Assembly (NCBI GenBank): GCA_032249315.1 | Contig: JAVVGB010000001.1 | Location: 4,072 to 68,071 of the forward strand | Direction: 5' to 3' | Origin: Thermoproteota archaeon | GTDB lineage: Archaea > Thermoproteota > Thermoprotei > Gearchaeales > Gearchaeaceae | DNA length: 64,000 nt | Part shown: in pieces, positions 550 through 55,892 of the stretch | Layout of the letters: each line of letters opens with the position of its first letter | How positions within the stretch are numbered: the stretch's first letter is position 1 | Notes under the pieces: model-generated | Databases searched by the model: none | What the model was told of the DNA's origin: nothing | Seen by the model: only the letters and a program-made list of their open reading frames with translations | Made by a program: the position numbers and the translations under genes

Positions 550-1294
550 ATGCGATAATTGCGGTGAAGAATTAAAAGAAATCAACAATTCTAAATATTT
601 AGTATGCATTCAATGCGGATTTGTTAGCAATATTATAATTTTTTCAACAGCAAATTTTATAAAAGAAGAAGAGCTAAAACAAAAATTCAGGAGAAATAAT
701 TTATATTTTTCTAAAACTTTTTTAAAATTAAAAATACCATTAAAATATAAAAATAAAATAAATAATAAAATTTTATATCAAATAAGAGATAAAAAAATTA
801 AAAGTAGAAAGGAAATAATTAAAATTATAAGAAATGAAATTAAAGACAATTCTTTAATAAATAAAAAAACAATAAAAGAAGCAAAAAAATATATTAATAT
901 AATTAAAGTATTTTTAAATTATAGCGGCATAGAAGAGATTTTTCTAGGTATAGCAATAATTTTTTATTGTAAAAGGAATAATGTCAATATTTCTTTTGAA
1001 ACTGTAGCTAAGTTTCTAGGAATTTCAAAAAATAATCTTTTTAGAAGATATAAAGAATTTGAAAAGAGAATAAAACTTTATACCAATTTAAATTTTAAAA
1101 AAGCTCTTATACTTAAAATAATCGGTCAAAAGAGATTCAAAAATTTATCTCTCAAAGACATTTCTTTAATTTATAACAAAGATTACCAAAGATTAAAGAA
1201 AACTTATTTGAGATTATATAAAAAATTAAAAAGTAAAAGTACTGAGGAAATAATTAAAGATTTTTTAGTAAATTATGCAGGGGGTGGGATTTGA
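542..1294 (+). CDS. TFIIB-like protein: N-terminal Zn-ribbon plus a single cyclin-like repeat (divergent TFB paralog)
   Basis: CDNCGEELKEIN…VCIQCGF is a C-X2-C-X15-C-X2-C ribbon. Residues ~150-215 (GIAIIFYCKRNNVNISFETVAKFLGISKNNLFRRYKEFEKRI) match the TFB cyclin-repeat pattern (A..Y.ACR…R…EIA…VS.KE.GR.YR). The 3' end overlaps the opposite-strand tRNA-Leu. Confidence 0.5.
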   Translation: MLKCDNCGEELKEINNSKYLVCIQCGFVSNIIIFSTANFIKEEELKQKFRRNNLYFSKTFLKLKIPLKYKNKINNKILYQIRDKKIKSRKEIIKIIRNEIKDNSLINKKTIKEAKKYINIIKVFLNYSGIEEIFLGIAIIFYCKRNNVNISFETVAKFLGISKNNLFRRYKEFEKRIKLYTNLNFKKALILKIIGQKRFKNLSLKDISLIYNKDYQRLKKTYLRLYKKLKSKSTEEIIKDFLVNYAGGGI

Positions 1295-1362
1295 ACCCAC
1301 GCTGGCCTCAAAGCCACGGGATCTTGAGTCCCGCCCCTTAGACCTGGCTCGGGAACCCCTGC
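1276..1362 (-). tRNA. tRNA-Leu (anticodon CAA), long variable arm
   Basis: Cloverleaf read by hand. Acceptor GCAGGGG/CCCCTGC, anticodon stem CGGGA/TCCCG, loop CTCAAGA, variable arm TGGCTTTGAGGCCAGC, T-arm GTGGGTTCAAATCCCAC. CCA is not encoded. Confidence 0.9.
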
Positions 1363-21442: not shown

Positions 21443-21799
21443 ATGAATGAAATAAAACAGGTTATTGTTGTTAGGAATGATATTAAAATGGGTAAAGGTA
21501 AAATTGCTGCTCAAGTTGCTCATGCTTCAGTTTCTGCTTTTGTTGAAACATTAAAAGTAAATAAAAAATTAGCAGAAGATTGGCTATTTACTGGACAAAA
21601 GAAAGTAGTTTTAAAAGTTGATAGCTTAGAAGAATTATTAAGTTTGTATAAAAAAGCAATTGAAAAAGGATTAATAGCAGTAATAATAGAAGATAAGGGA
21701 TTAACACAATTGCCTGAAGGAACAATTACTTGTTTAGGTATTGGTCCTGATGAAAATAATAAAATAGATGAAATAACTTCTAAACTTAAGTTGCTTTAA
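21443..21799 (+). CDS. pth2: peptidyl-tRNA hydrolase, archaeal Pth2 type
   Basis: 118 aa with KQVIVVRNDIKMGKGKIAAQVAHAS…, the Pth2 signature. Confidence 0.85.
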   Translation: MNEIKQVIVVRNDIKMGKGKIAAQVAHASVSAFVETLKVNKKLAEDWLFTGQKKVVLKVDSLEELLSLYKKAIEKGLIAVIIEDKGLTQLPEGTITCLGIGPDENNKIDEITSKLKLL

Positions 21800-21964
21800 T
21801 TACTTCTTGACGATTTCTCTCCTTTTTAATCTTAAATTCTTTCTTTTGCATTTTCTGCATTTTTCAGCCTTTATTGAATTTCTTGCACCACATTCTCTAC
21901 ATATTTTTACAAATAGCAGATATTTTTGAGCTAGCTGTATTTTCTCAGGAGAAGGTAAAGGCAT
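21800..21964 (-). CDS. rpl40e: 50S ribosomal protein L40e (54 aa)
   Basis: Not in the ORF track. Hand translation gives MPLPSPEKIQLAQKYLLFVKICRECGARNSIKAEKCRKCKRKNLRLKRREIVKK*, with the L40e C4 Zn motif (KICRECGARN…CRKC). Confidence 0.8.
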   Translation of the reverse strand: MPLPSPEKIQLAQKYLLFVKICRECGARNSIKAEKCRKCKRKNLRLKRREIVKK

Positions 21965-22011
21965 AAATTAAAAATTACAGAAGAACTTTATAAATTTAAA
22001 AAAATTTAAGT

Positions 22012-22518
22012 CTAATCTATCGTTATCCTTACGTTTGTAGATAACAATTTAGATATGACTTTTTCCATTTCTTTTATTCCAATGGTAAGTTTTATTATTT
22101 CTTCTTTACTTATTCTAATATTATATTCATAAGAGCCTTCAGGCGACCATACCTGGTTTAAACTTAAAATTTTTACAGGATAAAAAATTTGCGAAACAAA
22201 TTTTTTAACATCTTTAACTTTCTCAACTATTTTTACATTTTTTCCTGTTTTATTACTTAAGTATTTTGAAAGGGAAGAAACTAATAATGGATTTAAAAGA
22301 GATGGAGATGAAACTATGACTAATAAGTTATCATTGTTTATGCTACTAACCTCTTCCAAGTTTATATTTTTGACCTCTTTAAATTTTTCTTCAATTTCAT
22401 AAAGATACTTTGCTACCTCTACTTCTGTAGAATTTAATATACCTTTTTCAAATTTCTCGCTACATTGAGAACAAAAAATATTACTTAGTGCACATACTTT
22501 GCATACTTTTGCTTTCAT
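22012..22518 (-). CDS. hypothetical protein with an N-terminal CxxC…CxxC zinc-ribbon (168 aa)
   Basis: Starts MKAKVCKVCALSNIFCSQCSEK…; no further assignable motif. Confidence 0.35.
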   Translation of the reverse strand: MKAKVCKVCALSNIFCSQCSEKFEKGILNSTEVEVAKYLYEIEEKFKEVKNINLEEVSSINNDNLLVIVSSPSLLNPLLVSSLSKYLSNKTGKNVKIVEKVKDVKKFVSQIFYPVKILSLNQVWSPEGSYEYNIRISKEEIIKLTIGIKEMEKVISKLLSTNVRITID

Positions 22519-22711
22519 TATATCAATTCTTTAATAAGTTTAACATGCTAAAATAGATTACTTTTTAATATCCATTATTTAAAATGAAAGCCTTGCTTTT
22601 TAGGGCGGGGAAGTCAGTTAATGTTATATCAGTCTCATGTTAAAGAACTAGCTTTAATATGCATAAAAATTGCTAAGCTAATAAATTATTTTAATCATTA
22701 AAAATAACAAA

Positions 22712-23992
22712 ATGAAAAAAGTTTACATAAACGAAATTCCTAAGCTAGTTGATAAAGAAATAGAATTGTATGGATGGGTACATGAAATTAGAGATACTGC
22801 AAAATTCCTATTTATTATTGTAAGAGACGTTACAGGAAAAGCACAAATAACAATAAATAAAGACCAGGAGGAAATATCCAAGATAGGCGAAAAACTACAT
22901 CATGAAGATGTAATATACGTTAAAGGAATAGTTAAAAAATCAGAAATAGCAAAATTAGGTTACGAAATAATTCCAAACGAAATAAAAGTAATTTCCAAAG
23001 CAAAACATCCATTAGCTTTGGATGTTACTAGAAAAGTTGATGCTGAATTAAATACAATTTTAGATGCAAGATATCTTTCATTAAGAAGAGAAGATTATAA
23101 TTCGATATTTAAAATTCAATCTGCATTGGTTAGATATATTCGTGAATTTTTATATGAAAGAGGATTTATTGAAATATTTACTCCTAAAATAATAAAATTC
23201 GCTACAGAAGGAGGAGCTGAACTATTTGAAGTAAAATATTTTGATGAAATAGCTTATCTTGCACAAAGTCCACAAATATATAAAGAAATTTGTTCAGGAG
23301 CCTTTGAAAAAGTATTCGAAATAGCTAGTTATTTTAGAGCTGAAAAATCTAGAACACCTTATCATTTATCAGAATTTTTATCCTTTGATGTAGAATGTGC
23401 TTTTTATAGCTATCATGCAGTAATGGATCTATTGGAATCTTTGATAAAATATGTAATTAACAAGCTCTATGAAAATAATGAAAAAGAGTTTAAAGTTTTA
23501 AAAAGTGAAAAAATAAACGTCGATTATAAATTTGAAAGAATAAAATATGATGAGGTAATTTCAATTCTTGAACCTTATGGTATAAAATGGGGTGATGACT
23601 TGACACAACATACTTTAAAATTGCTTGAAGAAAAAATGGGTAAGAAATTTTTCTTTATAATAGATTGGCCAACGGAATTAAAACCATTTTATACCTATGA
23701 GCATGAAGATAATCCTAAAATAACCAAATCTTTTGATTTTAACTATGGATTTTTAGAAATAGCTTCAGGAGGGGAAAGAATTTATAAAAGTGAGCAACTT
23801 ATTCAAAAACTTAAGAAAATGAACTTAAATCCTGAGAATTTCTCTTTGTTTATAAAGGCTTTAGATTCAGGTATGCCTCCTCATGCAGGTTTTGGCTTAG
23901 GAATATCAAGGCTTTTACTAATTTTAACTAATAGCAGAAACGTAAAGGAAGTTGTATTATTTCCAAGGGATGTTGATAGATTAATTCCTTAA
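22712..23992 (+). CDS. aspS: aspartyl-tRNA synthetase (archaeal type)
   Basis: 426 aa with an N-terminal OB fold and class IIb motifs: LAQSPQIYKE (QSPQ is typical of AspRS rather than AsnRS), FRAE, GFGLGISRLL. Confidence 0.85.
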   Translation: MKKVYINEIPKLVDKEIELYGWVHEIRDTAKFLFIIVRDVTGKAQITINKDQEEISKIGEKLHHEDVIYVKGIVKKSEIAKLGYEIIPNEIKVISKAKHPLALDVTRKVDAELNTILDARYLSLRREDYNSIFKIQSALVRYIREFLYERGFIEIFTPKIIKFATEGGAELFEVKYFDEIAYLAQSPQIYKEICSGAFEKVFEIASYFRAEKSRTPYHLSEFLSFDVECAFYSYHAVMDLLESLIKYVINKLYENNEKEFKVLKSEKINVDYKFERIKYDEVISILEPYGIKWGDDLTQHTLKLLEEKMGKKFFFIIDWPTELKPFYTYEHEDNPKITKSFDFNYGFLEIASGGERIYKSEQLIQKLKKMNLNPENFSLFIKALDSGMPPHAGFGLGISRLLLILTNSRNVKEVVLFPRDVDRLIP

Positions 23993-24070
23993 AAGAAAAA
24001 TTATGAGTCAAGAATGAATTAGAGAGTAAGTAAAAAATCCCATGCGGATATCCTAAAATCAAACGGGTGA

Positions 24071-24217
24071 GTATCCCATAAAGGGAATTGAAAGTATGGA
24101 ACAGGAAATAAAAGAACTATTGGAAGGAGTATCCCATAAAGGGAATTGAAAGAATTTTGGTCTAGCTGATTGTGGCATTGCAGATGCTCTAAAGTATCCC
24201 ATAAAGGGAATTGAAAG
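24071..24217 (+). CRISPR. orphan CRISPR mini-array: 3 identical 24-nt repeats and 2 spacers (34 and 41 nt)
   Basis: GTATCCCATAAAGGGAATTGAAAG occurs at 24071-24094, 24129-24152 and 24194-24217. The spacers are unique. The repeat ends GAATTGAAAG like crenarchaeal type I-A/III repeats, which would give an ATTGAAAG 5' handle. No cas genes lie within 20 kb. Confidence 0.7.
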
Positions 24218-24253
24218 TTAAAAGAAAAATTCTAAAGAACTTATTTATTATTT

Positions 24254-24327
24254 GGGCTGGTGGTCTAGCCTGGTAGGATGTCTGCCTCACACGCAGGAGA
24301 ACCCCGGTTCAAATCCGGGCCAGCCCA
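24254..24327 (+). tRNA. tRNA-Val (anticodon CAC)
   Basis: Acceptor GGGCTGG/CCAGCCC, anticodon stem with loop CTCACAC, T-arm CCCGGTTCAAATCCGGG. Confidence 0.9.
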
Positions 24328-24351
24328 AAATTTGATTTTTTATAATAATTT

Positions 24352-25101
24352 CTATACAGGTTTTGCAGATTCCCAAACATATAAGAAATAATTTTTTGCA
24401 AATTTAGCTAAACCTTCATGGTCTGACCATAAAGCAATAAAATCCCCATCTTCTTCTGATAATAAAAGCAAAACTTCCTTTGAATCAACTATCAATCCTC
24501 CTCCAAACATTTTTTTGGCTACCCTAACTTCTATATTAAGGTTTGAAAATCTGAAAATTGTATCGGATACATCTTTGCTTATTAATGCATATATTTTTAT
24601 ATTTTGAAATCTTATGCTAGTAAATAAATCAGGAATTATTTGCTTTAGCTCAGGATAATACTTAGGTAAAGATAGAAAAAGTTCATGTTTACAAATTATT
24701 ACCATCTCTTTTATTTTAGCAATTATATCATTTTTTCCTCTTATAAGCCATACATCAGATTTTTCCTTTATACCTTTTCTTTCATATATTGCATTTAACT
24801 CGGAAAGTGCAATTTCTACATTTTGTATTAATTTTTTCTCATTTTCTTTTTTAAGATAATCAAGAACTATTTTAGGTTCGATAGGATAATATTTAGCAGG
24901 TCTAGCTTTTTCTATCTTAATAAAACCTTTTTTAAATAAACTAGTTAAGACTTCGTAAACTTTAGTATAAGGTATTTTAGAGATTTGACTAAGCTCATTT
25001 GCAGTTAGATAACCATGAGAAATCAAGGTTTCATAAACTTTTACCTCATAAGCAGTTAATCCAAGTTCATATAAAGCTTTTCTAGCTTGATCTGAAAGCA
25101 T
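24352..25101 (-). CDS. TrmB-family transcriptional regulator
   Basis: 249 aa with an N-terminal wHTH (LGLTAYEVKVYETLISHGYLTANELSQISKIPYTKVYEVLTSLFKKGFI) and a C-terminal effector domain typical of TrmB. Confidence 0.7.
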   Translation of the reverse strand: MLSDQARKALYELGLTAYEVKVYETLISHGYLTANELSQISKIPYTKVYEVLTSLFKKGFIKIEKARPAKYYPIEPKIVLDYLKKENEKKLIQNVEIALSELNAIYERKGIKEKSDVWLIRGKNDIIAKIKEMVIICKHELFLSLPKYYPELKQIIPDLFTSIRFQNIKIYALISKDVSDTIFRFSNLNIEVRVAKKMFGGGLIVDSKEVLLLLSEEDGDFIALWSDHEGLAKFAKNYFLYVWESAKPV

Positions 25102-25932: not shown

Positions 25933-26661
25933 ATGAAAATAGAAGACTGTTTATTTCCTGAAGAATTATTATATACTCCAGATTTTAATGTTTGGTTTAA
26001 AGAAATACAAACAAATATATACAAAATTGGTATAACTAGCTTGTTTTCATTTTATTTAGGAAAAATAGTAAGAATTAACTTTAAGCCTATTCTTAGTATA
26101 ATAGAAAAGGGAAAGAATGTTTGCTTAATTGAAAGCTTAAATAAATATGAAGGAATCAGATTGCCTTTCAAAGTTAAATTAATTGAAATTAATGAAAAAA
26201 TACTATCCAAACCAAAAATTGTTAACGATGATCCTTATAATGATGGTTGGTTAGCTTTGATTGAAGCAATGGAAAAACCAATTCTTCTTAAAGAAGTTAA
26301 AAAAGAAGAAGAAAATATAAAAAATCTCATAAAAACTTTAAAAATAAAATGTTTAAAATATGTACCAGATCATCATCTTTATGAAATAGGTGTTGAATGC
26401 GCAGCGGTAATACCGAAGCTTAATGAATTATTTTCTAAAATTCAAGAAAAGGAAATAGTTTTGCTTGTTTCAGATGATCCTACAGCTTACGTGGAAATGA
26501 TAAGATGGACTGATCAAACAAAAAATGAGTTTTTAGATGTAAAAAAAGAAGGAAATTTATGGTATATATTTGTAAGAAAAAATAAACTGGTGAAATACTT
26601 GCTCCTCCTGAATATCCCAATGAAGGCGGACAAAGAGGTGGACATATTCCTAAGGCTTTAA
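25933..26661 (+). CDS. fusion protein: N-terminal GcvH-like lipoyl-type domain plus C-terminal TusA-like sulfur-carrier domain. The last ~25 codons read through into inverted rhodanese DNA.
   Basis: Residues 1-120 carry the GcvH hallmark DPYNDGWL, with ESLNK in place of the ESVKA lipoyl site. Residues ~140-215 resemble TusA (…[40 protein letters not shown]). The native end is probably near 26585. Confidence 0.55.
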
Positions 26662-26840
26662 ATATTCCGTGGAGTATTGCAGTTAAAGAAGATGGAACGA
26701 TAAAAAGCTATGAAGAGCTTAAGCAAATATATGAAAGTCAAGGTGTAACTCCTGATAAAGAAATAATAGTATATTGCAGAATAGGAGAAAGAGCTTCATT
26801 TACATGGTTTATATTCCTTTGGACTTCTAACATCTATTAA
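26586..26840 (+). pseudogene. inverted fragment of a rhodanese (thiosulfate sulfurtransferase) catalytic domain
   Basis: The frame opens after TAA at 26583-85 and has no start codon. It encodes [29 protein letters not shown]…[19 protein letters not shown], containing the rhodanese active-site Cys loop. It is on the opposite strand from the rest of the gene. Confidence 0.6.
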
Positions 26841-27335
26841 TATTTTATCTACGCCAACATACTGTAAGGAAGACTTAACATAATCAAGATATGCTCTAAT
26901 TTTTTCATCAGGCTCTTGAGCAACATAATTTGTTGGAGGAAAACTTGGAATATCTTTTGTTATTGGTCTATCTTCTTCTAACCATTTTTTCCTTCCACCA
27001 TTCATTAATCTAACATCTTTGTGGCCATAGTATTTAAATACCCAAAAAGCAAAGGCAGCAAACCAGTTATTGAAATCACCGTATAATACAACTGTTGTAT
27101 CATTACTTATTCCTAATCTGCTTAAAAGTTTTTCAAAATCAGCTTTTTTTATAATATCCCTAATTAAAGGATCATTCATGTCCTTTTTCCAATCTATTAG
27201 TACTGCATTTGGTACATGTCCTTGATAATAATTCGAAGGATCGTAATCTACTTCAGCTATTCTTATTTGCGGATTGTTTATATTATTTTGTACCCATTCT
27301 GTAGATACTAAAACCTCTGGTTTAAAATAACCCAT
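26796..27335 (-). pseudogene. rhodanese gene, 5' part (N-terminal inactive domain plus the first strand of the catalytic domain), truncated at about 26810
   Basis: 179 aa: MGYFKPEVLVSTEWV…GHVPNAVLIDW… (N-domain), then …[11 protein letters not shown], then KPCK*. Homology stops exactly where the plus-strand fragment's homology ends. Confidence 0.6.
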
Positions 27336-32786: not shown

Positions 32787-32826
32787 AATAAACTTAAAAT
32801 TTTATTTTAATAAATAATAATTGGAA

Positions 32827-32913
32827 GCCCCAGTAGCATAGCTTGGTAATGCGCTTGCCTCGTAAATATATCGGGAAAGCAAGAGATCGCGGGTTCAAAT
32901 CCCGCCTGGGGCT
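32827..32913 (+). tRNA. intron-containing tRNA, probably tRNA-Thr (anticodon CGT) with a ~13-nt intron after position 37
   Basis: Acceptor GCCCCAG/CTGGGGC, D-stem GCAT/ATGC, anticodon stem CTTGC/GCAAG enclosing a 20-nt loop CTCGTAAATATATCGGGAAA, T-arm GCGGGTTCAAATCCCGC. EndA is encoded in the window. Confidence 0.65.
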
Positions 32914-32975
32914 TAAAATTTACCATTATAACAATAGTTATATTTATATTTTGGTTGAAATACTATTAAGGAAGT

Positions 32976-33740
32976 ATGATTGATACACTAACAATTGAGG
33001 ACTTGCATGTAGAAGTAGAAGGAAAAGAAGTAATTAGAGGTGTAAATTTAGAAGTTAAAAAAGGCGAGATTCATGCAATAATGGGTCCAAACGGTTCAGG
33101 AAAAAGCTCATTAGCTTTAGCTATATTAGGTCATCCTAAATATAAAATAACAAAAGGAGACATTAAATTAAACGGCGAAAGTATAATTAATTTACCTACA
33201 GATCAAAGAGTTAAAAAAGGCTTATTTCTATCTATGCAATACCCAATAAGTATACCTGGAATTACTTTGCTTAGTTTAATGAGAGCTTCAATTACATCAA
33301 TATATGGATTACAACAAGATTCTAAAGAAATAGCTACCGTTATAAAAATTAAGAAGGATCTAACAAATGCTTTAAAATTACTTGGTTTAGATGAAAGCTT
33401 TAGTTCAAGATATATAAATGAAGGATTTTCAGGAGGAGAGAAAAAAAGAACTGAAATTGTTCAATTGGCAATGATAAAGCCAAAATTTGCAATATTAGAT
33501 GAAACAGATTCAGGATTGGATATAGATGGTATAAAAATAGTTTCAAATGCAATAATGGAAATATATAAAAATGGTATGGGATTAATTTTAATTACGCATT
33601 ATAACAGAATATTGAAATATATTAGACCCAACTATGTTCATGTATTAATAGATGGTAAAATAATTGATTCAGGAGGCGCTGAATTAGCTGATCATCTTGA
33701 AGAAAAGGGTTATAATTGGTTAAGAGGTGTAGGAACATGA
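32976..33740 (+). CDS. sufC: Fe-S cluster assembly ATPase SufC
   Basis: 254 aa ABC ATPase with GPNGSGKSSL, LSGGEKKR and ILDETDSGLD. Confidence 0.9.
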   Translation: MIDTLTIEDLHVEVEGKEVIRGVNLEVKKGEIHAIMGPNGSGKSSLALAILGHPKYKITKGDIKLNGESIINLPTDQRVKKGLFLSMQYPISIPGITLLSLMRASITSIYGLQQDSKEIATVIKIKKDLTNALKLLGLDESFSSRYINEGFSGGEKKRTEIVQLAMIKPKFAILDETDSGLDIDGIKIVSNAIMEIYKNGMGLILITHYNRILKYIRPNYVHVLIDGKIIDSGGAELADHLEEKGYNWLRGVGT

Positions 33741-36217
33741 GCAAAATAGATCTTAGTTTTGATTATAGTAAATACAATTTTAGAGATATTGTAGAGTATG
33801 AAATACTATTACCTAAAGGGCTAAACGAAGAAATAGTAAGGGAAATATCTAGAATAAAGAATGAACCTTCATGGATGGAAGAATTCAGAGTTAAATCATT
33901 TAAATTATTCATGGAAAAACCAATGCCTACATGGGGTGTAGATCTATCAAAACTTAGATTGGATGATATCCATTATTATGCAAAACCTACAAGCAAAAAA
34001 GGAAGAAGTTGGGATGAAGTACCTGAATATATAAAAAGAACTTTTGAAAGATTAGGAATTCCTGAAGCAGAAAGGAAATTCTTAGCAGGAGTAGGAGGTC
34101 AATATGATTCAGAAGTTGTATATCATAACTTAAGGAAAGAATTAGAAAAGCAAGGAGTAATTTTTGTTGATACAGATACAGCTGTAAGAGAATATCCTGA
34201 AATAGTTAAAAAATACTTTGGTACAGTTGTACCTCCAAATGATAATAAATTTGCTGCATTAAATTCAGCAGTATGGAGCGGAGGTAGCTTTATTTATGTT
34301 CCTGAAGGAGTTAAAGTAGAGATGCCCTTACAAGCATATTTCAGAATTAATGCTCAAAATGTTGGTCAATTTGAAAGAACATTAATAATAGCTGAGCCTT
34401 ACAGCGAAGTCCAGTATATTGAGGGGTGTTTGCCACCAGGTGAAAAGGTTTCTTTAGGAGATTCTTGGATAAATATTGAAACGATAAAACCAGGAGATTA
34501 TGTTGTTACTCATAGGGGAACTTTAGCTAAGGTTAAATTGGTAATGACGAGAAATTATAAAGGAGATATGTACAAAATTACACCAATTTCTCCTTTTAAT
34601 AGTTTTTCGCTTACCGAGGAACATCCAGTTTTAGCTATTAAGAGAGAGTGGGTAATGAAAAAGAGAAAAATAAGGAAAGAGGGTTGGCTACCAGAAGTAG
34701 ATTCTCGAAAGTTAAAGAATACAAAACCAGAATTCATTCCGGTAAGAGATCTTAAAAAAGGAGATTTTCTAATATTTCCCAAAATAAAAAATCAAATAAT
34801 AAATTCTTCAAATCTTTCTGATGAAGAAATAGAATTTTTAGGATTTTATGCTGCTGAAGGTTCAGCTTATTATCATAAAAAACTTAAACAATTTGTTGTT
34901 TCTTTGTCTTTTTCTGAAAGAGAAAAGGAAAATATTGAAAGAGTAAAGTTTCTAATAGAAAAAATCTCTGGCAAAAAAGCTATTTTAGTAAGAGATAAAA
35001 AGAAACATTCAATAAATGTAGTAGTATATTCAAAACCATTATACGATTTGTGTTTAAGACATTGCGGAAAATTGGCCAAAGAGAAAAGACTAAGCCCAGA
35101 GATATTGAATTTGCCAAAAGAAAAATTAGAAAAGTTCTTTTGGGCTTATTTTAAAGGAGATGGAAATCTTTGCATAAAAAATGGAAAAAGTAAACTTTAT
35201 CGTGTTGCAACTGCTTCAATTAATTTAGCCATTCAGCTACAAGAGATTTTAGCCAAAATTGGAATTTTCGCTAGCATTCAAGAAAGAAAAGGAGGAAAGG
35301 ATAAAATTTTGGGAAGAGAGATCAAAAGAAAAAATCAATACATTGTTGCTTTTACTTATCCTAAAAAGTGGTCAGAAGTGAGAGAAACAGAGGAATATTA
35401 TATAGTCCCAATTAAAAAAATCGAAAAGTTTGAATATGAAGGTCCAGTTTTTAATCTAGAAGTTGAAAGGGATAATTCTTATTTAGTTAAAGGATTTGCA
35501 GTTCACAATTGTACAGCGCCGATATATTTGAGTCATTCGTTACATAGTGCAGTAGTAGAGATAATTGCAAAGAAAGGAGCAAAGGTAAGATATACTACAA
35601 TACAAAACTGGAGTATAGATGTTTATAATTTAGTAACAAAGAGAGCCCATGCATATGAAGAAGCTAGAGTAGAATGGGTCGATGCAAACATTGGAAGTAA
35701 AGCTACAATGAAATATCCTTCAGTTTATCTTTTAGGAAAATATGCGACTGCTGAAATAATTTCAGTTGCTTTTGCAGGAAAAGGTCAACATCAAGATACT
35801 GGTGGAAAGGTAATTCATTTAGCTCCATATACTTCTTCTAGAATTACTTCAAAATCTGTATCAAAAGACGGTGGAAGAACTACATACAGAGGATTATTAC
35901 ATGTAGCAAAGGGAGCTAGAGGAGTTAAAGCAAGTGTAAGATGTGATGCTTTGCTTTTAGATGAATATTCAAAAACAGATACATATCCATACGTTGAAAT
36001 ATTAGAAGATGATGCTACAGTTACACATGAAGCAACAGTAGGAAAAATTAGCGAAGATCAGCTATTTTATTTAATGTCAAGAGGAATTCCAGAAGTAGAA
36101 GCATTAAATATGATAGTTTTAGGATTCTTTGAACCATTTATAAAAGAGCTACCAATGGAATATGCTGTAGAAATGAATAGATTATTAAGACTTGAAATGA
36201 CAGGTTCTGTAGGTTAA
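33737..36217 (+). CDS. sufB: Fe-S cluster assembly protein SufB interrupted by an in-frame intein (precursor 826 aa; spliced about 465 aa)
   Basis: SufB blocks flank a 361-aa insert. …RTLIIAEPYSEVQYIEG|C…intein…HN|CTAPIYLSHSLHSAVVEIIAKKGAKVRYTTIQNW… restores the canonical EGCTAP motif. ATG 33737 overlaps the sufC stop (ATGA); the ORF-track start at 33716 is a TTG. Confidence 0.85.
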   Translation: MSKIDLSFDYSKYNFRDIVEYEILLPKGLNEEIVREISRIKNEPSWMEEFRVKSFKLFMEKPMPTWGVDLSKLRLDDIHYYAKPTSKKGRSWDEVPEYIKRTFERLGIPEAERKFLAGVGGQYDSEVVYHNLRKELEKQGVIFVDTDTAVREYPEIVKKYFGTVVPPNDNKFAALNSAVWSGGSFIYVPEGVKVEMPLQAYFRINAQNVGQFERTLIIAEPYSEVQYIEGCLPPGEKVSLGDSWINIETIKPGDYVVTHRGTLAKVKLVMTRNYKGDMYKITPISPFNSFSLTEEHPVLAIKREWVMKKRKIRKEGWLPEVDSRKLKNTKPEFIPVRDLKKGDFLIFPKIKNQIINSSNLSDEEIEFLGFYAAEGSAYYHKKLKQFVVSLSFSEREKENIERVKFLIEKISGKKAILVRDKKKHSINVVVYSKPLYDLCLRHCGKLAKEKRLSPEILNLPKEKLEKFFWAYFKGDGNLCIKNGKSKLYRVATASINLAIQLQEILAKIGIFASIQERKGGKDKILGREIKRKNQYIVAFTYPKKWSEVRETEEYYIVPIKKIEKFEYEGPVFNLEVERDNSYLVKGFAVHNCTAPIYLSHSLHSAVVEIIAKKGAKVRYTTIQNWSIDVYNLVTKRAHAYEEARVEWVDANIGSKATMKYPSVYLLGKYATAEIISVAFAGKGQHQDTGGKVIHLAPYTSSRITSKSVSKDGGRTTYRGLLHVAKGARGVKASVRCDALLLDEYSKTDTYPYVEILEDDATVTHEATVGKISEDQLFYLMSRGIPEVEALNMIVLGFFEPFIKELPMEYAVEMNRLLRLEMTGSVG
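34427..35509 (+). mobile_element. intein (361 aa) with a LAGLIDADG homing-endonuclease domain inside sufB
   Basis: Begins with Cys (C238) and ends …VHN, followed by +1 Cys. Two dodecapeptide blocks are present: LGFYAAEGSAYY and FWAYFKGDGNL. Length is 1083 nt, in frame. Confidence 0.75.
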
Positions 36218-38392: not shown

Positions 38393-38476
38393 GCAGGGGT
38401 TCCCTAGCCAGGTCAAAGGGGTGGGGCTTAGGACCCTATGGCGAAGGCCTTCGTGGGTTCAAATCCCACCCCCTGC
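38393..38476 (+). tRNA. tRNA-Leu (anticodon TAG), long variable arm
   Basis: Acceptor GCAGGGG/CCCCTGC, anticodon loop CTTAGGA, variable arm ATGGCGAAGGCCTTC, T-arm GTGGGTTCAAATCCCAC. Confidence 0.9.
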
Positions 38477-38625
38477 ATATTTATTTCGAATAATTTTCAT
38501 CTTGTTTTTTTGGTTAATATTTCGTTGATTTATTTAAAAGTAGAATAATTTTCATATTTTCAGTCCAAATATCACATTATTTTTAAAAAACTTAGAAAAT
38601 AATCGGTTAATATTTCAAATACGAT

Positions 38626-52939: not shown

Positions 52940-54079
52940 TTGATAGTTTTAAGATTGATAGGAGAATTTGGAAGCGGATTCACAGGCCCTTCAAAGCAAG
53001 CATATCTTTTAACCAAAGGTTTGGAAAATAAAGGAATTAGCTCAATAATTTTAACCTTTAAAAAGGGATCAGTAAATTTAAAGAGAAGTAAGATAATTGA
53101 ATATAAGCCATTTTTTGGCGCGGGCCATTACAAGCTATCTTTGAAAATGTTGCTAGATTCTTTAAGGAAAGATTACAATATAATTCATGTTCATGGCTAC
53201 AGGAATTTCCAGACCGATGCTGGGGCTATATCCTCTTTCCTTAGAAAAGTACCTTTAATAATTACAACGCATGGAACTGTTAGAGGCTATGAATTCTTGG
53301 ATTTAGATTTGAAATCAAGATTGCCAAATATAATCTATGATGCAATAACAATGAAGTTTTCTTTAAAAATAGCAAAGATAATCGTTGCTACGTCAAAAAG
53401 TGAAGCGAAAGAGTTAATTAGTTTTGGAATTCCAGAAAATAAAATAAAAATAATACCAAACGGTATAGAATTTCCAAATATTAATATAAAGAAGAAAGAT
53501 AAAGGAACAATAAATTTACTTACTGTAAGCAGATTAACTTATAAAAATAATTTAGAAATGGCAATTAAAGCTTTTTATGAAGCTTATAAAAGAAATAATA
53601 AGCTTCGTTATATAATAGTCGGAGATGTGATTCCTAGCAGATATGGAAAAGAAGAGAAAGGATACAAAGAAATGCTAATTAAATTATGCAAGGATTTAGG
53701 TTTGCAAGACAAAGTGATCTTCAAAGGATGGCTAAGCGGTGAAGAATTATGGAAAGTTTACTGCAATTCAGATTTATTTATATGGAGCTCAAGATATGAT
53801 AACTTTGCACATGCATTAGTTGAAGCAGCTTACTTTAAATTACCGATTATAAGTACGCCTGTTGGTATAGTTGAGGAGCTTATAGGAAAAGAAGGAGGCT
53901 TCATTGTAAGTCATGAAAATTATAAGGAAATGAGTGAAAGAATAATTGAAATTGTAGAAAATCCTAAACTAATGATAGAGATGGGTGAGCATAATCATAA
54001 GCAATCTTTAAATTATAGCTATGAAAGAATGGTGGGAGAATATTACAAATTATATAAAGAAGTATTGCAATATAAGTAA
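52940..54079 (+). CDS. GT4-family glycosyltransferase
   Basis: 379 aa with EAAYFKLPIISTPVGIVEELI (E-x7-E-type C-terminal motif). Confidence 0.7.
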   Translation: MIVLRLIGEFGSGFTGPSKQAYLLTKGLENKGISSIILTFKKGSVNLKRSKIIEYKPFFGAGHYKLSLKMLLDSLRKDYNIIHVHGYRNFQTDAGAISSFLRKVPLIITTHGTVRGYEFLDLDLKSRLPNIIYDAITMKFSLKIAKIIVATSKSEAKELISFGIPENKIKIIPNGIEFPNINIKKKDKGTINLLTVSRLTYKNNLEMAIKAFYEAYKRNNKLRYIIVGDVIPSRYGKEEKGYKEMLIKLCKDLGLQDKVIFKGWLSGEELWKVYCNSDLFIWSSRYDNFAHALVEAAYFKLPIISTPVGIVEELIGKEGGFIVSHENYKEMSERIIEIVENPKLMIEMGEHNHKQSLNYSYERMVGEYYKLYKEVLQYK

Positions 54080-54092
54080 GAACAACAAAACA

Positions 54093-54452
54093 ATGGGCCA
54101 CATTTACGTTACAGCTAAGTTGGGAGATCCGCTCAAGCAAAAGGTTAGAGATGTTAAAATGCTTGTTGATACCGGTGCAACATATCCATGTATCCCTAAA
54201 TGGCTGGCCGAAGCGTTAGGTTTGAGATTGGAATTTAAGACTATGGTCACATTAGCTGATGGAAGGATGGTTGAGGCATGGTATACGACAGCTTATCTAG
54301 AAATTATGGGAAAAGGTGATTTGATTCCAATTAGAGTTTTCGATGTTGATGAGCCATTACTTGAAGTCTTTGCACTTGAAGCCTTAGGATTAGCTGTGGA
54401 TCCTGTGTCAGGAGAAATTAAGCCTACGAGAACCTTCATAGCAAGGGCTTAA
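54093..54452 (+). CDS. retropepsin-like (clan AA) aspartic protease, single domain (~119 aa from M25)
   Basis: LVDTGAT is the D-T/S-G-A catalytic motif, followed by a flap and a C-terminal strand. GC is about 42% against about 30% in flanking genes. The ORF-track start at 54021 lies inside the upstream GT4 gene; ATG 54093 is more plausible. Confidence 0.55.
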   Translation: MGHIYVTAKLGDPLKQKVRDVKMLVDTGATYPCIPKWLAEALGLRLEFKTMVTLADGRMVEAWYTTAYLEIMGKGDLIPIRVFDVDEPLLEVFALEALGLAVDPVSGEIKPTRTFIARA

Positions 54453-54503
54453 TTAACAGTCACGGCGAGTTGGATGCTTTCTTTACCATAAGAGTCAATT
54501 AAC

Positions 54504-54752
54504 ATGTTAAGGAGGAATATTGTGAATACTAATAAGATTAAGCTCTTATTTGCGCCCGGATTAGAAGTTGAGTTCGTTGATAGAGAAAGAGCTATAAAAC
54601 AGGTGGAAGAGTTTGCTGAGAAAGGTACTAGATTCCCGATAGTTGTCTTCGGGCCTGAAGGTTGTGGCAAAACCGCATGGTTAAAACAAGCTACTTTTAT
54701 TTTACGGGAACTTGGTTTTGAAGCTATTTATATTGATCCATTACATACGTAA
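54504..54752 (+). pseudogene. truncated N-terminal fragment (82 aa) duplicating the downstream AAA ATPase
   Basis: KLLFAPGLEVEFVDRERAIKQVEEFAEKGTRFPIVVFGPEGCGKTAWLKQATFILRELGFEAIYIDPL aligns residue-for-residue with residues 11-78 of the 54861..55892 protein, then stops. Confidence 0.5.
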
Positions 54753-54860
54753 GTACAAGAAGGGATGGAAAATATATGCAAAGATATAAAAAAATTAGGA
54801 ATACCATTCATAATATATTCATGAGACCCCTAAAATAGTAACAGTGCAGCATAAATTAGA

Positions 54861-55892
54861 ATGCAACCCTTGAGTAGCAATGTGAAAAGAATAAGGCTAC
54901 GCTTTGATGATCTTCAAATTGAATTTACAGCTAGAGACAGGGCGCTTAGTCAAGTATCTGAATGGGCTGATAGAGGCACCGGAAATCCAGTAGTAATCTT
55001 CGGACCTGAGGGTTGCGGAAAGTCTGCCTTCTTGCTACAAGCAACAGCAATGCTTAAAGAGATGGGCTACGATGTCTTCTACCTACACCCTCTGGACAAA
55101 ATCTTCGAAGCAGAGATAGAGGAGATAGACGTGAAAAGAGCGTTTCTAGACTTTGTCCAAAGAGCGGCAGCAGAGGATGCTTTGGGCAGAGTAGCATGGG
55201 CAGTATTCGATTTCGTACGCGAAGGATTAAAGAGAAGAAAAAGGAAAGTGGCCGTAATAGCTGATGACGTGTTTCAAGCAATAGGACTCAATAGAGCGGC
55301 AATTTATGTAAAAGGTCTGCTGAACATGATAGAACACCCATTCTACAACTACGAAAAAATGGTTGTGCTAGTAGCGACCAGCGAGGGCTTAACTCGCTAT
55401 GAAATCGGCAGGCACAGGTGGGCTTATATATTACCCATGTGGAACATGAACAGGGAAGAGTTCGAGCAACTCTACCAGAAAATACCAGGCCCGAAACCAT
55501 CACTTGAAGAGGCATGGAAGCTAACAGGAGGAAATCCTTACATGCTACAGGAGCTGTACAGAAAGCAGTGGAACGCGGATGATACGGTAACAGGTATCAT
55601 CGAAGTAAAATCTTTGAGAGACTTCATCTTTGCACTGACGAAAGAAGAGAGGGCATGGCTGATAGAGGCTCTAGATGATCCTGACACACTCTATACAAGA
55701 GAGAGGTTGCCTCTACTGCACAAGTTGGTTGAAATAAATCTTGCAGTAAGTAGTATGTACAGCAGAATTCCGAATCTTTGGATAGACATACCACCTCCCG
55801 AAAAGGACCTAGAGCTGGGCATAGGAAAATATGCTTCATGGCAAACACCCCTTCATCGAGAAGCCATAAGAAGGATACTTATGAAAGTATGA
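54861..55892 (+). CDS. archaeal-type AAA ATPase (Arch_ATPase/PF01637-like)
   Basis: 343 aa with Walker A GPEGCGKS, Walker B VAVIADDVFQ and an alpha-helical C-terminal part. GC is about 47%, the highest in the window. Confidence 0.6.
   Translation: MQPLSSNVKRIRLRFDDLQIEFTARDRALSQVSEWADRGTGNPVVIFGPEGCGKSAFLLQATAMLKEMGYDVFYLHPLDKIFEAEIEEIDVKRAFLDFVQRAAAEDALGRVAWAVFDFVREGLKRRKRKVAVIADDVFQAIGLNRAAIYVKGLLNMIEHPFYNYEKMVVLVATSEGLTRYEIGRHRWAYILPMWNMNREEFEQLYQKIPGPKPSLEEAWKLTGGNPYMLQELYRKQWNADDTVTGIIEVKSLRDFIFALTKEERAWLIEALDDPDTLYTRERLPLLHKLVEINLAVSSMYSRIPNLWIDIPPPEKDLELGIGKYASWQTPLHREAIRRILMKV

What the first reader, a model, noticed from the sequence alone, without database searches (positions are those of the whole stretch)
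24040..24330. Orphan three-repeat CRISPR mini-array immediately upstream of tRNA-Val, with no cas genes in the window
There are three perfect copies of GTATCCCATAAAGGGAATTGAAAG, with 34-nt and 41-nt unique spacers. The repeat belongs to the crenarchaeal family ending GAATTGAAAG (Cas6 8-nt handle). A possibly degenerate repeat-like sequence (…ATCCCATGCGGATATCC…) lies just upstream at about 24040-24066, on the leader side. The array ends 36 nt before tRNA-Val. Mini-arrays next to tRNA genes can be remnants of larger arrays or may be serviced in trans by cas loci elsewhere.
Basis: seen in the sequence. Interest (0 to 1): 0.5.

Follow-up and report, generated by a model that had tools for sequence, protein, structure and literature searches.

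The report
Small satellite CRISPR array beside tRNA-Val
This is a real two-spacer CRISPR array that arose when a short copy of the organism's main CRISPR leader plus repeat was inserted next to a tRNA gene; related strains show it gaining spacers or decaying, so it is a well-documented example of a known kind of element, not a new kind.

Summary
Three perfect 24-nt repeats (24071-24094, 24129-24152, 24194-24217) flank spacers of 34 and 41 nt, 35 nt upstream of tRNA-Val(CAC). No cas gene was found in the window.

It is a genuine CRISPR array. The identical repeat forms arrays of up to 157 repeat copies directly downstream of a complete type I-A cas locus in hot-spring metagenomes. The 68 nt upstream of the window's first repeat are a truncated, 75%-identical copy of that main leader.

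A sister lineage (82% identical flanks) has a clean empty site. The window carries a 229-bp insertion bracketed by an exact 14-nt duplication, TTAAAAGAAAAATT, which is probably the tRNA-Val TATA-like promoter element.

Within the species the locus is polymorphic. One clade has perfect repeats and spacers S1/S2/S3. The other has degenerate repeats with one or no spacer.

Spacer S2 overlaps, on the opposite strand, a spacer in the main array (31 of 32 bases). This points to independent capture from a shared target.

Verdict: an isolated, trans-serviced type I-A mini-array born by ectopic copying of leader plus repeat. It is not a remnant of a local cas locus and not carried by a mobile element. 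It is a new member of a known kind, of moderate interest.

The parts
22712..23992 (+). aspS (aspartyl-tRNA synthetase), the upstream flank. Its stop codon TAA (23990-23992) lies inside the left 14-mer.
   Evidence: ORF. Homologues carry PF01336 and PF00152. The flank is conserved in all related loci.
23989..24002 (+). Left copy of the 14-nt direct duplication TTAAAAGAAAAATT. Its last 8 nt (GAAAAATT) are also where homology to the main CRISPR leader begins. It is the candidate promoter for the mini-array (inferred).
   Evidence: Exact 14-nt repeat D11. The sister lineage L016 has a single copy. The leader alignment starts at GAAAAA-TTAT.
24003..24070 (+). Truncated CRISPR leader: a copy of about the last 93 nt of the main type I-A leader, carrying a ~12-nt deletion, and ending in the conserved CGGG.G.G junction motif.
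   Evidence: Local alignment score 52 against shuffles of 18.1 +/- 2.6, with 0 of 1000 reaching it. BLAST gives 75% identity over 69 nt, E = 4e-6. The junction motif is shared with cas-adjacent arrays.
24036..24059 (+).
   Evidence: It is homologous to GTCCCGCGTGGATATCCGAAAA in the main leader. The equivalent element matches the repeat at 19/24 in the type II leader and 15/24 in type III.
24071..24094 (+). CRISPR repeat 1 (leader-proximal).
   Evidence: Exact match. Identical to the repeat of the large cas-adjacent arrays.
24095..24128 (+). Spacer S1 (34 nt), the newest spacer by inference. It is shared by haplotypes A and B.
   Evidence: No protospacer was found.
24129..24152 (+). CRISPR repeat 2.
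24153..24193 (+). Spacer S2 (41 nt). Positions 10-41 are the reverse complement, at 31 of 32 bases, of a spacer in the main array lineage L004/L049.
   Evidence: No protospacer was found in the public virus or plasmid sets.
24194..24217 (+). CRISPR repeat 3 (terminal).
24218..24231 (+). Right copy of the 14-nt duplication TTAAAAGAAAAATT, at -36 to -23 (Rfam start; -35 to -22 by ARAGORN) from tRNA-Val. It is probably the tRNA's TATA-like promoter element.
   Evidence: The spacing to the tRNA (22 nt) is the same as for the single copy in L016. Similar TTAAA(A)G elements lie upstream of other tRNAs in the window.
24253..24328 (+). tRNA-Val (CAC), the downstream flank.
   Evidence: ARAGORN. Rfam RF00005, 62.5 bits.
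24352..25101 (-). TrmB-family transcriptional regulator, a conserved downstream neighbour. It is not part of the CRISPR unit; I used it as an anchor to recover strain variants.
   Evidence: Pfam PF01978 and PF11495. The exact protein was found on 22 contigs.

Best explanation
The feature is an isolated (cas-distal) CRISPR mini-array belonging to a Sulfolobales-style type I-A system of a very AT-rich hot-spring archaeon of the NAG1/'Geoarchaeota' lineage. It originated when about 80 nt of the leader end of the main cas-adjacent array, plus its first repeat, was copied into the 36-nt gap between the aspS stop codon and tRNA-Val. The copy landed at the tRNA's TATA-like promoter element, which ended up duplicated on both sides as a 14-nt direct repeat. 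The retained leader-repeat junction then let the host's Cas1-Cas2 (with Cas4 and Csa1) add spacers at the leader end. The likely order is S3 (itself apparently leader-derived), then S2, then S1. Recombination between repeats later removed individual units, giving the window its leader-R-S1-R-S2-R form. In a sister clade of the same species the locus has decayed to degenerate repeats with one or no spacer. The array is presumably transcribed from the duplicated promoter or the leader remnant, cut by Cas6 within each repeat so that every crRNA keeps the 8-nt AUUGAAAG 5' handle, and loaded into effector complexes encoded elsewhere in the genome. Shown here: the identity of the repeat, the leader homology, the empty site, the duplication, the haplotypes, and the S2 overlap with a main-array spacer. 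Inferred: the order of events, promoter use, current activity, and location in the same genome as the cas locus.
For: (1) Repeat identity. The exact 24-nt repeat occurs in arrays of 44 to 157 repeat copies. These lie directly downstream of csa1-cas1-cas2-cas4, next to csa3, csa5, cas7/csa2, cas5a, cas3 and csaX.
(2) Leader homology. Window 23994-24066 aligns with -93 to -19 of that main leader: score 52 against 18.1 +/- 2.6, 0 of 1000 shuffles; 75% identity, E = 4e-6.
(3) Empty site. L016 (82% identical flanks) reads aspS stop, one TTAAAAGAAAAATT, 22 nt, tRNA-Val. More distant relatives have tRNA-Val directly after the L40e gene, with no CRISPR. The array is therefore a derived 229-bp insertion flanked by an exact 14-nt duplication.
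(4) Population polymorphism. Haplotype A (99.9% identical flanks) has the window's structure in three further assemblies. B (99.05%) has S1 plus S3. C has degenerate repeats plus a diverged S3. D, E and F have a single degenerate repeat. All of them keep the leader and both 14-mers.
(5) S2 overlaps a main-array spacer on the opposite strand at 31 of 32 bases. This is what independent acquisition from one target would give.
(6) Link to a cas locus. JGI sample 3300045908 has the type I-A locus at the end of a 582-kb contig and mini-array haplotype B on a 439-kb contig. Samples 3300005858 and 3300005855 also contain both. [quoted passage not shown]
(7) TTAAA(A)G-type elements sit at about -45 to -25 upstream of several tRNAs in the window, which supports the promoter reading of the 14-mer.
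Against: No protospacer was found for S1 or S2 in cultured phages, IMG/VR contigs or plasmids, so a foreign origin for the spacers is inferred, not shown. Only about 70 nt of a leader of more than 200 nt are retained, with a 12-nt deletion near the integration site, and whether that is enough for adaptation is untested. The shared spacer S1 is leader-proximal while the differing spacers (S2 versus S3) are distal. That is the reverse of the usual pattern and needs two independent deletions to explain. No Cas6 gene was seen in the roughly 10 kb of cas locus available. The link to one genome rests on co-occurrence in samples and on composition (r = 0.98, which does not discriminate among relatives), not on a closed genome. 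There are no expression data. The molecular mechanism of the insertion is unresolved: there are no terminal inverted repeats, and 14 nt does not match the 24-nt repeat-length duplication expected from Cas1-Cas2.
Confidence: 0.85

Rival explanations
1. Inert fossil. The locus is a genuine ectopic copy of leader plus repeat and did acquire spacers in the past, but in the window's strain it is no longer transcribed, processed or extended. It would be neutral DNA on its way to the decayed state seen in the sister clade.
For: Most haplotypes in the species (C to F) have degenerate repeats and one or no spacer. The leader is truncated and carries a 12-nt deletion. The array has only two spacers, against 44-157 repeats in the main arrays. 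No target was found for either spacer.
Against: In clade 1 all three repeats are perfect, and the leader-repeat junction motif CGGG.G.G is intact. In clade 2, only about 2% diverged overall, the repeats have already picked up 1-2 changes each. That contrast fits recent repeat duplication by spacer acquisition, or purifying selection, in clade 1. S1 and S2 are specific to clade 1 and so are more recent than the split between the clades. S2 samples a target that the main array also targets.
Confidence: 0.2
2. Remnant of a once-complete local CRISPR-Cas locus: a large array and its cas genes formerly sat here and were deleted, leaving three repeats.
For: Orphan and isolated arrays are often explained this way; the idea is reviewed in PMC13142298. 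The haplotypes do show that repeat-spacer units can be lost.
Against: The sister lineage has a precise empty site with only 36 nt between aspS and tRNA-Val. The whole unit is 229 bp, bracketed by an exact 14-nt duplication. The leader begins abruptly at -93 of the main leader, right at the aspS stop codon. The flanking genes are conserved housekeeping genes in the same order in all relatives. The window has no cas pseudogene fragments by tblastn.
Confidence: 0.04
3. Mini-array carried by a mobile element: the array belongs to an integrated virus or plasmid that used the tRNA gene as its attachment site, like the virus-borne mini-arrays of Sulfolobales viruses.
For: Virus-borne mini-arrays have 1-2 spacers, host-like repeats and leaders, and no cas genes (PMC6858448). 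tRNA genes are common integration sites (general knowledge). The insert is flanked by direct repeats.
Against: The insert is only 229 bp and has no ORF. No integrase, transposase or viral genes flank it. It lies 5' of the tRNA, in the promoter, not in the tRNA's 3' half. The neighbours on both sides are conserved chromosomal genes with intact synteny in strains with and without the array.
Confidence: 0.03
4. Neo-CRISPR from off-target spacer integration, or a casposon- or MITE-like transposition: Cas1-Cas2 or a casposase inserted DNA at a non-CRISPR site and created the flanking duplication.
For: There is a 14-nt flanking duplication next to a tRNA gene. Casposases make 14-15-bp target duplications and favour sites next to tRNA genes (my own knowledge, not checked here). 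Off-target spacer acquisition is one proposed route to isolated arrays (cited in PMC13142298).
Against: The repeats are identical to the main CRISPR repeat and are not derived from local sequence. The 14-nt duplication is shorter than the 24-nt repeat length that this Cas1-Cas2 would duplicate. The two ends of the insert (ATGAGTCAAGAA... and ...GGGAATTGAAAG) are not inverted repeats (read directly). The left 14-mer overlaps donor homology (GAAAAATT), which points to a microhomology junction, not a staggered cut.
Confidence: 0.03
5. Not CRISPR at all: a short tandem repeat or a regulatory element of the tRNA-Val promoter that only resembles a CRISPR repeat.
For: Solo copies of the same 24-mer occur in intergenic regions of two other archaeal genomes (L008; L012/L002). 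The element sits in a promoter region.
Against: The identical repeat forms arrays of 44-157 units with about 39-nt unique spacers next to cas genes. The leader is homologous. The spacers are polymorphic. S2 overlaps a main-array spacer. The locus is absent from the sister lineage, whose tRNA-Val is otherwise intact.
Confidence: 0.01

Closest known systems
Isolated (cas-distal) CRISPR arrays whose leader is a copy of a cas-adjacent array's leader, for example Pseudomonas aeruginosa type I-F CRISPR3 (PMC13142298); general category from Shmakov et al. [quoted passage not shown]
   Same: The repeat is the same as in the cas-adjacent array. The leader is homologous to the cas-adjacent leader. There are no cas genes nearby. 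The spacer content differs from the main array and varies between strains. [quoted passage not shown]
   Different: This one is archaeal and type I-A, not bacterial type I-F. It is tiny (two spacers). The leader copy is only about 70 nt and 75% identical, against about 98% over 900 bp in P. aeruginosa. No mobile elements flank it. An exact empty site and a 14-nt junction duplication are preserved here, so the insertion can be read to the nucleotide.
Multi-array type I-A CRISPR-Cas loci of Sulfolobales (Saccharolobus/Sulfolobus) with 24-25-nt repeats ending in ATTGAAAG
   Same: The repeats are 24 nt with the 3' ...GAATTGAAAG end. The gene set is csa1-cas1-cas2-cas4 plus csa3, csa5, cas7/csa2, cas5a, cas3 and csaX. 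Spacers are about 39 nt. The leader carries a BRE/TATA-like promoter.
   Different: The host is a NAG1/'Geoarchaeota'-lineage archaeon with 28% GC, not a member of the Sulfolobales. The array in the window is separated from the cas locus and has a truncated leader.
Virus-borne mini-CRISPR arrays of Sulfolobales viruses SPV1 and SPV2 (Medvedeva et al. 2019, PMC6858448)
   Same: They have 1-2 spacers, host-type repeats, a preceding leader similar to host leaders, no cas genes, and presumed dependence on host Cas proteins. Stand-alone repeats also occur.
   Different: Those arrays are on viral genomes and target competing viruses. This one is chromosomal, lies between aspS and tRNA-Val, and has conserved host synteny and no viral genes.
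Neo-CRISPR formation by off-target Cas1-Cas2 integration, and casposon integration with 14-15-bp target duplications near tRNA genes (my own knowledge, not verified here)
   Same: A new CRISPR-like locus or insert appears at a non-CRISPR site with a short flanking direct duplication next to a tRNA gene.
   Different: The repeats here are copies of the main repeat, not duplicated local sequence. The duplication is 14 nt, not the 24-nt repeat length. There are no terminal inverted repeats and no casposase. Part of the left duplicate is also homologous to the donor leader.

Membership tests
CRISPR array | Two or more near-identical direct repeats of about 23-50 nt, separated by unique spacers of similar length | tested here: met
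   Three exact 24-nt repeats with 34- and 41-nt unique spacers. No chance matches in shuffles.
CRISPR array | The repeat is identical or near-identical to the repeats of arrays physically linked to cas genes | tested here: met
   The exact repeat occurs in arrays of 44-157 units, directly downstream of csa1-cas1-cas2-cas4 and the type I-A effector genes.
CRISPR array | An upstream leader related to that of cognate arrays, with a conserved leader-repeat junction | tested here: met
   Alignment score 52 against 18.1 +/- 2.6, 0 of 1000 shuffles. 75% identity over 69 nt, E = 4e-6. The junction CGGG.G.G|repeat is shared with the main arrays. The copy is truncated to about 70 nt.
CRISPR array | Spacers derived from foreign genetic elements (protospacer matches) | tested here: inconclusive
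   No significant match in phages, IMG/VR contigs or plasmids. Indirect support: S2 overlaps, on the opposite strand, a main-array spacer at 31 of 32 bases. S3 (in relatives) looks leader-derived, not foreign.
CRISPR array | Spacer content varies between closely related strains while the flanks are conserved | tested here: met
   Six haplotypes plus an empty site, with flanks 96-99.9% identical to the window.
CRISPR array | Transcription into pre-crRNA and processing into crRNAs | not testable with these tools
   No expression data are available. The promoter assignment (left 14-mer plus leader remnant) is inferred.
Type I-A (Sulfolobales-type) CRISPR-Cas repeat family | A 24-25-nt weakly structured repeat ending in the 8-nt handle ATTGAAAG | tested here: met
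   The sequence ends ...GAATTGAAAG. Only a 4-bp stem is predicted, at -5.1 kcal/mol.
Type I-A (Sulfolobales-type) CRISPR-Cas repeat family | Association with Cas7/Csa2, Cas5a, Csa5, Cas3 and the Csa1-Cas1-Cas2-Cas4 adaptation genes | tested here: met
   This holds for the main arrays on other contigs. TIGR02583 Cas7/Csa2 scores 250.7 bits against a cutoff of 212.6; Cas5a, Cas3' plus Cas3'', Csa5, Csa3, CsaX, Csa1, Cas1, Cas2 and Cas4 are also present. None of them is in the window itself.
Type I-A (Sulfolobales-type) CRISPR-Cas repeat family | A compatible Cas6 processing endonuclease in the genome | tested here: inconclusive
   No Cas6 was seen in the roughly 10 kb of cas locus available. PMC5671600 reports cas and cmr genes in GBS NAG1 but does not name cas6 in the passages I read.
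Isolated (not orphan) array | No cas genes near the array | tested here: met
   63 ORFs across 64 kb have no strong Cas hit in PADLOC; only the 25 best-supported families were listed, and those not shown have E > 2.5e-6. The Pfam summary shows housekeeping families. tblastn with ten type I-A proteins finds nothing.
Isolated (not orphan) array | A cognate cas locus elsewhere in the same genome | tested here: inconclusive
   Large contigs in the same sample carry the two loci: 582 kb with the cas locus and 439 kb with the mini-array. They co-occur in two further samples. Composition is compatible. The literature agrees. There is no closed genome.
Virus- or MGE-borne mini-CRISPR array | Located within a viral, plasmid or integrated-element genome (integrase, attachment sites, MGE genes) | tested here: not met
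   The 229-bp insert has no ORF. Its neighbours are aspS, tRNA-Val, TrmB regulators, GcvH/TusA, a rhodanese and a radical SAM enzyme. Synteny is conserved in strains with and without the array.
Neo-CRISPR by off-target spacer integration | The repeats are duplications of local target sequence, of about repeat length | tested here: not met
   The repeats equal the main CRISPR repeat. The duplicated local sequence is 14 nt and lies outside the repeats.
Casposon- or MITE-like transposition | Terminal inverted repeats plus a target-site duplication (14-15 bp for casposons) | tested here: not met
   A 14-nt duplication is present, but the two ends of the insert are not inverted repeats (read directly). 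There is no casposase or Cas1 in the window.

The most novel reading that the evidence does not exclude
The most novel reading not excluded is 'array homing'. In this reading the ectopic array was seeded by repair of a break at the tRNA-Val promoter, possibly caused by a self-targeting spacer from the main array, with the main CRISPR locus itself as the repair template. The left junction would have formed through the 8-nt microhomology GAAAAATT between the target and the main leader's TATA region. The right junction would have formed exactly at the repeat-spacer boundary, through a spacer that matched the chromosomal site. If so, CRISPR leader-repeat modules could copy themselves to the chromosomal sites their own spacers match. 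The insertion would also destroy the target context while duplicating a tRNA promoter that then drives the new array. This would be a specific, repeatable route for the birth of new CRISPR arrays.
Probability: 0.07. Interest if true: 0.75.

Novelty: new member of a known kind. Interest (0 to 1): 0.4.

Why it matters
How new CRISPR arrays arise away from cas genes is mostly inferred from end states. Here four stages are preserved in natural populations of one uncultivated archaeal lineage: the empty site, the exact junctions of the insertion, a growing form (perfect repeats, new spacers), and decaying forms (degenerate solo repeats). This supports the idea that a short leader end plus one repeat is enough to seed a working satellite array. 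It also gives a minimal natural leader (about 70 nt) to test with type I-A adaptation proteins. It suggests that a duplicated tRNA promoter can be co-opted to express an array. It probably also explains the puzzling '2-3 repeat' CRISPR region reported for GBS NAG1 assemblies. It does not reveal a new kind of system.

Tried and rejected
1. Protospacer searches for S1 and S2 found nothing meaningful. INPHARED phages gave only chance hits with E >= 0.1. IMG/VR exact 21-22-mers found nothing. Codon-degenerate patterns for three open frames found nothing. PLSDB plasmids gave no hit or only chance hits.
2. Rfam at gathering thresholds found only tRNAs in the window and no CRISPR-DR family.
3. The genome-contig scan did not recover the window's own genome, so a whole-genome inventory of arrays and cas genes for the source organism was not possible.
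4. I considered a 25-nt repeat, because an A precedes all three copies. I rejected it because the preceding base varies in the large arrays.
5. I considered reading the upstream ATCCCATGCGG... motif as a decayed repeat-spacer unit made in place. I rejected it because it is inherited leader sequence and lies only about 10 nt from repeat 1.
6. I tested whether any of 1,097 unique main-array spacers matches the aspS/tRNA-Val intergenic target, as the self-targeting origin would predict. None does.
7. Tetranucleotide composition could not tell the window's organism apart from related AT-rich archaea, so it does not prove that the cas locus is in the same genome.
8. The region upstream of the solo repeat in L012 shares an exact 16-mer with the main leader, but the overall alignment is not significant: score 33 against 23.9 +/- 3.7, maximum 39.
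9. The bacterial promoter/terminator scanner was not used because it does not model archaeal promoters.
10. Shmakov et al. 2020 (PMC7757702) could not be read.
Full report
OBSERVATION. GTATCCCATAAAGGGAATTGAAAG occurs three times without a mismatch, at 24071-24094, 24129-24152 and 24194-24217 on the + strand. There are no further copies in 64 kb with up to 3 mismatches, and none in 100 dinucleotide shuffles. There are still only three copies with up to 7 mismatches. The spacers are 34 nt (24095-24128, S1) and 41 nt (24153-24193, S2). tRNA-Val(CAC) follows at 24253-24328 or 24254-24327 (Rfam), which is 35-36 nt after the last repeat. The upstream gene (22712-23992) is an aspartyl-tRNA synthetase and the downstream gene (24352-25101, minus strand) is a TrmB-family regulator. 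The window is 28.4% G+C.

IS IT A CRISPR REPEAT? Yes. A scan of one genome per species found the 22-nt core in archaeal MAGs. Two contigs (L004, L005) carry the exact 24-mer 73 and 44 times with a period of about 63 nt. A metagenome scan with the leader-repeat junction returned 21 loci. Fifteen of them have the window's exact repeat, with up to 157 repeat copies. In L035, L050 and L054 that array lies directly downstream of csa1-cas1-cas2-cas4. The wider neighbourhood (L056, L058) is a complete Sulfolobales-style type I-A locus: csaX, a fused cas3'/cas3'', cas5a, cas7/csa2 (TIGR02583, 250.7 bits against a cutoff of 212.6), csa5 and csa3, then csa1-cas1-cas2-cas4, the leader and the array. Across 1,273 spacers from all fetched arrays sharing the repeat's 22-nt core (including a few Bathyarchaeia and mini-array loci), the median length is 39 nt, with 5-95% between 35 and 44. 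S2 (41 nt) is typical and S1 (34 nt) is slightly short. The base before GTATCCC varies in these arrays, so the unit is 24 nt.

NO CAS GENES IN THE WINDOW. I scanned 63 ORFs of at least 90 aa in one call against PADLOC-DB. The hits were unrelated ATPase, HerA and glycosyltransferase-type models, with no strong Cas family. The Pfam summary shows ordinary chromosomal genes: glycosyltransferases, SufBD, aminoacyl-tRNA synthetases and SRP54. The ten nearest neighbours, scanned individually, are regulators, GcvH/TusA, a rhodanese, a radical SAM enzyme, a HerA-like ATPase and an AIR-synthase-like protein. tblastn with all ten Cas proteins of L056 against the six-frame window found nothing at E <= 0.01.

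THE UPSTREAM 68 NT ARE A TRUNCATED COPY OF THE MAIN LEADER. The main ('type I') leader ends ...ACACGGAAAAATTTATAAGCCCAGAATCGGATTAATAATTAAATAAAAAGTCCCGCGTGGATATCCGAAAACAAAGCGGAAAATCACGCGGGCGG|GTATCCC. Window 23994-24066 aligns with positions -93 to -19 of it. The local score is 52 against 18.1 +/- 2.6 for 1000 shuffles, and none of them reached it. BLAST gives 75% identity over 69 nt with E = 4e-6. The window's copy lacks about 12 nt just before the junction motif, which it keeps (CGGGTGA|G against CGGGCGG|G). In a related leader type with a GAATCCC repeat (L010, L040) the same element matches the repeat at 19 of 24 positions, so it is an old fossil repeat embedded in the leader. It came with the leader copy and was not made in place.

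THE WHOLE UNIT IS A 229-BP INSERTION WITH A 14-NT FLANKING DUPLICATION. TTAAAAGAAAAATT occurs at 23989-24002, overlapping the aspS stop codon. It occurs again at 24218-24231, immediately after the last repeat. I fetched the same locus from relatives through the flanking proteins. In L016 (NCBI GCA_000398765.1; flanks 82% identical to the window) the region reads aspS stop, a single TTAAAAGAAAAATT, 22 nt, then tRNA-Val, with no leader and no repeat. In the window, 22 nt likewise separate the right-hand 14-mer from the tRNA. The left copy is therefore anchored to aspS and the right copy to the tRNA, and everything between them is extra. More distant relatives (68-72% identical flanks) have a different gene order, with tRNA-Val directly after the L40e gene and no CRISPR sequence. 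The array is thus a derived insertion in the window's lineage. Even if L016 had lost the array by recombination between the two 14-mers, the duplication itself would still be the footprint of an insertion.

THE 14-MER IS PROBABLY THE tRNA-Val PROMOTER ELEMENT. It lies at -36 to -23 from the tRNA. Other tRNA genes in the window have similar elements at about -45 to -25: Leu-CAA TTAAAAGGAATAT, Lys TTAAAGGAATAT, and others with TTTAAAA. Archaeal TATA boxes sit about 26-30 nt upstream of the start site (established knowledge). I infer that the right copy still serves the tRNA. The left copy, merged with the leader's own degraded TATA region (main AAATTTATAAG, window AAAAATTATGAG), could promote the mini-array. 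This is not shown.

HOW THE INSERTION HAPPENED IS NOT RESOLVED. Homology to the donor leader begins at GAAAAATT, inside the left 14-mer, so the left junction looks like an 8-nt microhomology junction. The right junction is exactly at the end of a repeat. The ends of the insert are not inverted repeats. The duplication is 14 nt, not the 24 nt that this system's Cas1-Cas2 would duplicate. No integrase or transposase is nearby. I favour microhomology-mediated copying, by template switching or break repair, from the main locus. Casposon-like, off-target-integration and MGE-integration models each fail a defining feature (see the membership table).

POPULATION HAPLOTYPES.
- A, the window's structure (leader-R-S1-R-S2-R, all repeats perfect): found in three further independent assemblies with 99.9% identical flanks (L023/L034, L032, and L024, which is partial).
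- B (L026, 99.05%): leader-R-S1-R-S3-R, with S3 = GAAATCAAAGCGTAAAACGAACGGACAG and a terminal repeat that starts with A.
- C (L025, L030, about 97.7%): leader-R'-S3'-R'', with 2 changes in each repeat and 5 changes in S3.
- D, E and F (L013, L028, L031; L014, L027, L033; L029; 96-98%): leader plus one degenerate repeat and no spacer.
All of them keep both 14-mers. SNPs in the flanks split them into clade 1 (A, B) and clade 2 (C to F). The most economical history is as follows. The ancestor was leader-R-S3-R. Clade 1 added S2 and then S1 at the leader end. A then lost S3 and B lost S2, each by recombination between repeats. Clade 2 decayed and mostly collapsed to a solo repeat that keeps the AAATGG mutation of C's terminal repeat. 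This history needs two deletions, and it predicts that an S1-S2-S3 haplotype exists.

EVIDENCE THAT THE SPACERS ARE REAL ACQUISITIONS. S2 positions 10-41 are the reverse complement, at 31 of 32 bases, of a 40-nt spacer in main-array lineage L004/L049. Those two contigs share 72 spacers in the same order across two samples. Two overlapping protospacers taken from opposite strands of one 49-nt stretch imply independent capture from the same target by the mini-array and by the main array. No protospacer was found in public virus or plasmid sets. That is unsurprising for an uncultivated hot-spring lineage, but it leaves the target unknown. S3 is different. It aligns along its length with the last ~29 nt of the main leader: score 24 against 13.5 +/- 2.4, reached by 1 of 2000 shuffles. 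It is also unusually short at 28 nt. The oldest unit is therefore probably a duplicated or captured 'leader end plus repeat' and not foreign DNA.

IS THE cas LOCUS IN THE SAME GENOME? This is likely but not proven. JGI sample 3300045908 has the type I-A locus at the very end of a 582-kb contig, which stops at leader plus first repeat (L058). The same sample has mini-array haplotype B on a 439-kb contig (L026). Samples 3300005858 and 3300005855 also hold both. Composition is compatible (tetranucleotide r = 0.98) but does not discriminate among relatives. [quoted passage not shown] That fits this locus being the only array short enough to assemble. I did not see a cas6 gene in the DNA available.

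COMPARISON WITH KNOWN SYSTEMS. The closest category is the isolated, cas-distal array whose leader is copied from a cas-adjacent array. [quoted passage not shown] Virus-borne mini-arrays of Sulfolobales viruses share the small size, the host-like leader and the dependence on host Cas proteins, but they sit on viral genomes (PMC6858448). The present case is an archaeal type I-A member of the first category. It is distinguished mainly by how completely its birth, growth and decay can be read from natural variants.

VERDICT. It is a new member of a known kind, with interest 0.4. The most novel reading not excluded is that break repair at a site matching a spacer copied the leader-repeat module there ('array homing'). 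I rate that at about 7% probability.

Noticed in passing
L026 (haplotype B) and L025/L030 (haplotype C), between the last two repeats of the mini-array; no counterpart in the window: 'Spacer' S3 (28 nt) aligns along its length with the last ~29 nt of the main CRISPR leader (GAAAACAAAGCGGAAAATCACGCGGGCGG). The score was reached by 1 of 2000 shuffles. The oldest unit of the mini-array therefore looks like a duplicated or captured 'leader end plus repeat', not foreign DNA. S3 differs at 5 of 28 positions between the clades, far more than the adjacent leader does.
   Followed up: partly
L008 1118-1141 (-) (Crenarchaeote SCGC AAA261-N23); L012 5095-5118 joined to L002 1-22 (Thermoproteota PSS.bin.9): Single solo copies of the exact 24-nt repeat lie in intergenic DNA of two other archaeal genomes, both followed by TAAAA. 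L012 shares an exact 16-mer (AAAATTTTATTATCCG) with the main leader upstream of its solo repeat, but the overall similarity is not significant. They could be further ectopic seeds or collapsed arrays.
   Followed up: partly
L042 (oriented) 375-1440: A main array is interrupted by a 1.07-kb segment between two intact repeats. The segment encodes two ORFs (217 and 114 aa) with hydrophobic ends and Thr/Gly-rich linkers. It is a gene-sized 'spacer' or an insertion of unknown origin.
   Followed up: no
L045 47-77 and downstream; L053 13482-13505: L045 has the main leader and one repeat, followed directly by more than 4 kb of non-array DNA with small ORFs. This could be a variant locus, an insertion or an assembly chimera. 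L053 has an extra degenerate repeat (GTATCCCATAAAGGTAATTGAAGG) about 440 nt upstream of its array's first repeat.
   Followed up: no
window 21443-24328 compared with L017, L061 and L062: The gene order around tRNA-Val is rearranged relative to more distant NAG1-type relatives. There the KH-domain gene and aspS form a co-directional pair and tRNA-Val sits 5 nt after the L40e stop codon. In the window's lineage aspS has moved next to tRNA-Val, which then has its own promoter element, the 14-mer later duplicated by the CRISPR insertion.
   Followed up: partly
window 26796-27335 (-) and 25933-26661 (+): The rhodanese ORF is 179 aa and the GcvH/TusA ORF 242 aa in the window and in haplotype-A locus L032. 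In haplotype B to F strains they are mostly 281 aa and 217 aa (the rhodanese is 300 aa in L025), and in L016 they are 281 aa and 222 aa. This suggests an indel or frameshift between these two genes that is specific to haplotype A.
   Followed up: no
window 33716-36217 (+): An 833-aa ORF has a weak homing-endonuclease hit (PADLOC HEase, E = 2.5e-6, residues 352-521), so it may contain an intein.
   Followed up: no
window 54001-56000: This stretch has 40.6% G+C, against about 28% in the rest of the window. Rfam found no RNA family there at gathering thresholds. Part of it (54093-54431) is protein-coding and conserved with L008.
   Followed up: no
window 32826-32914 (+), 38393-38477 (+) and 1276-1362 (-): tRNA-Ala(TGC) is 89 nt long, which suggests an intron. 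The two tRNA-Leu genes are 85-87 nt, as expected for class II tRNAs.
   Followed up: no
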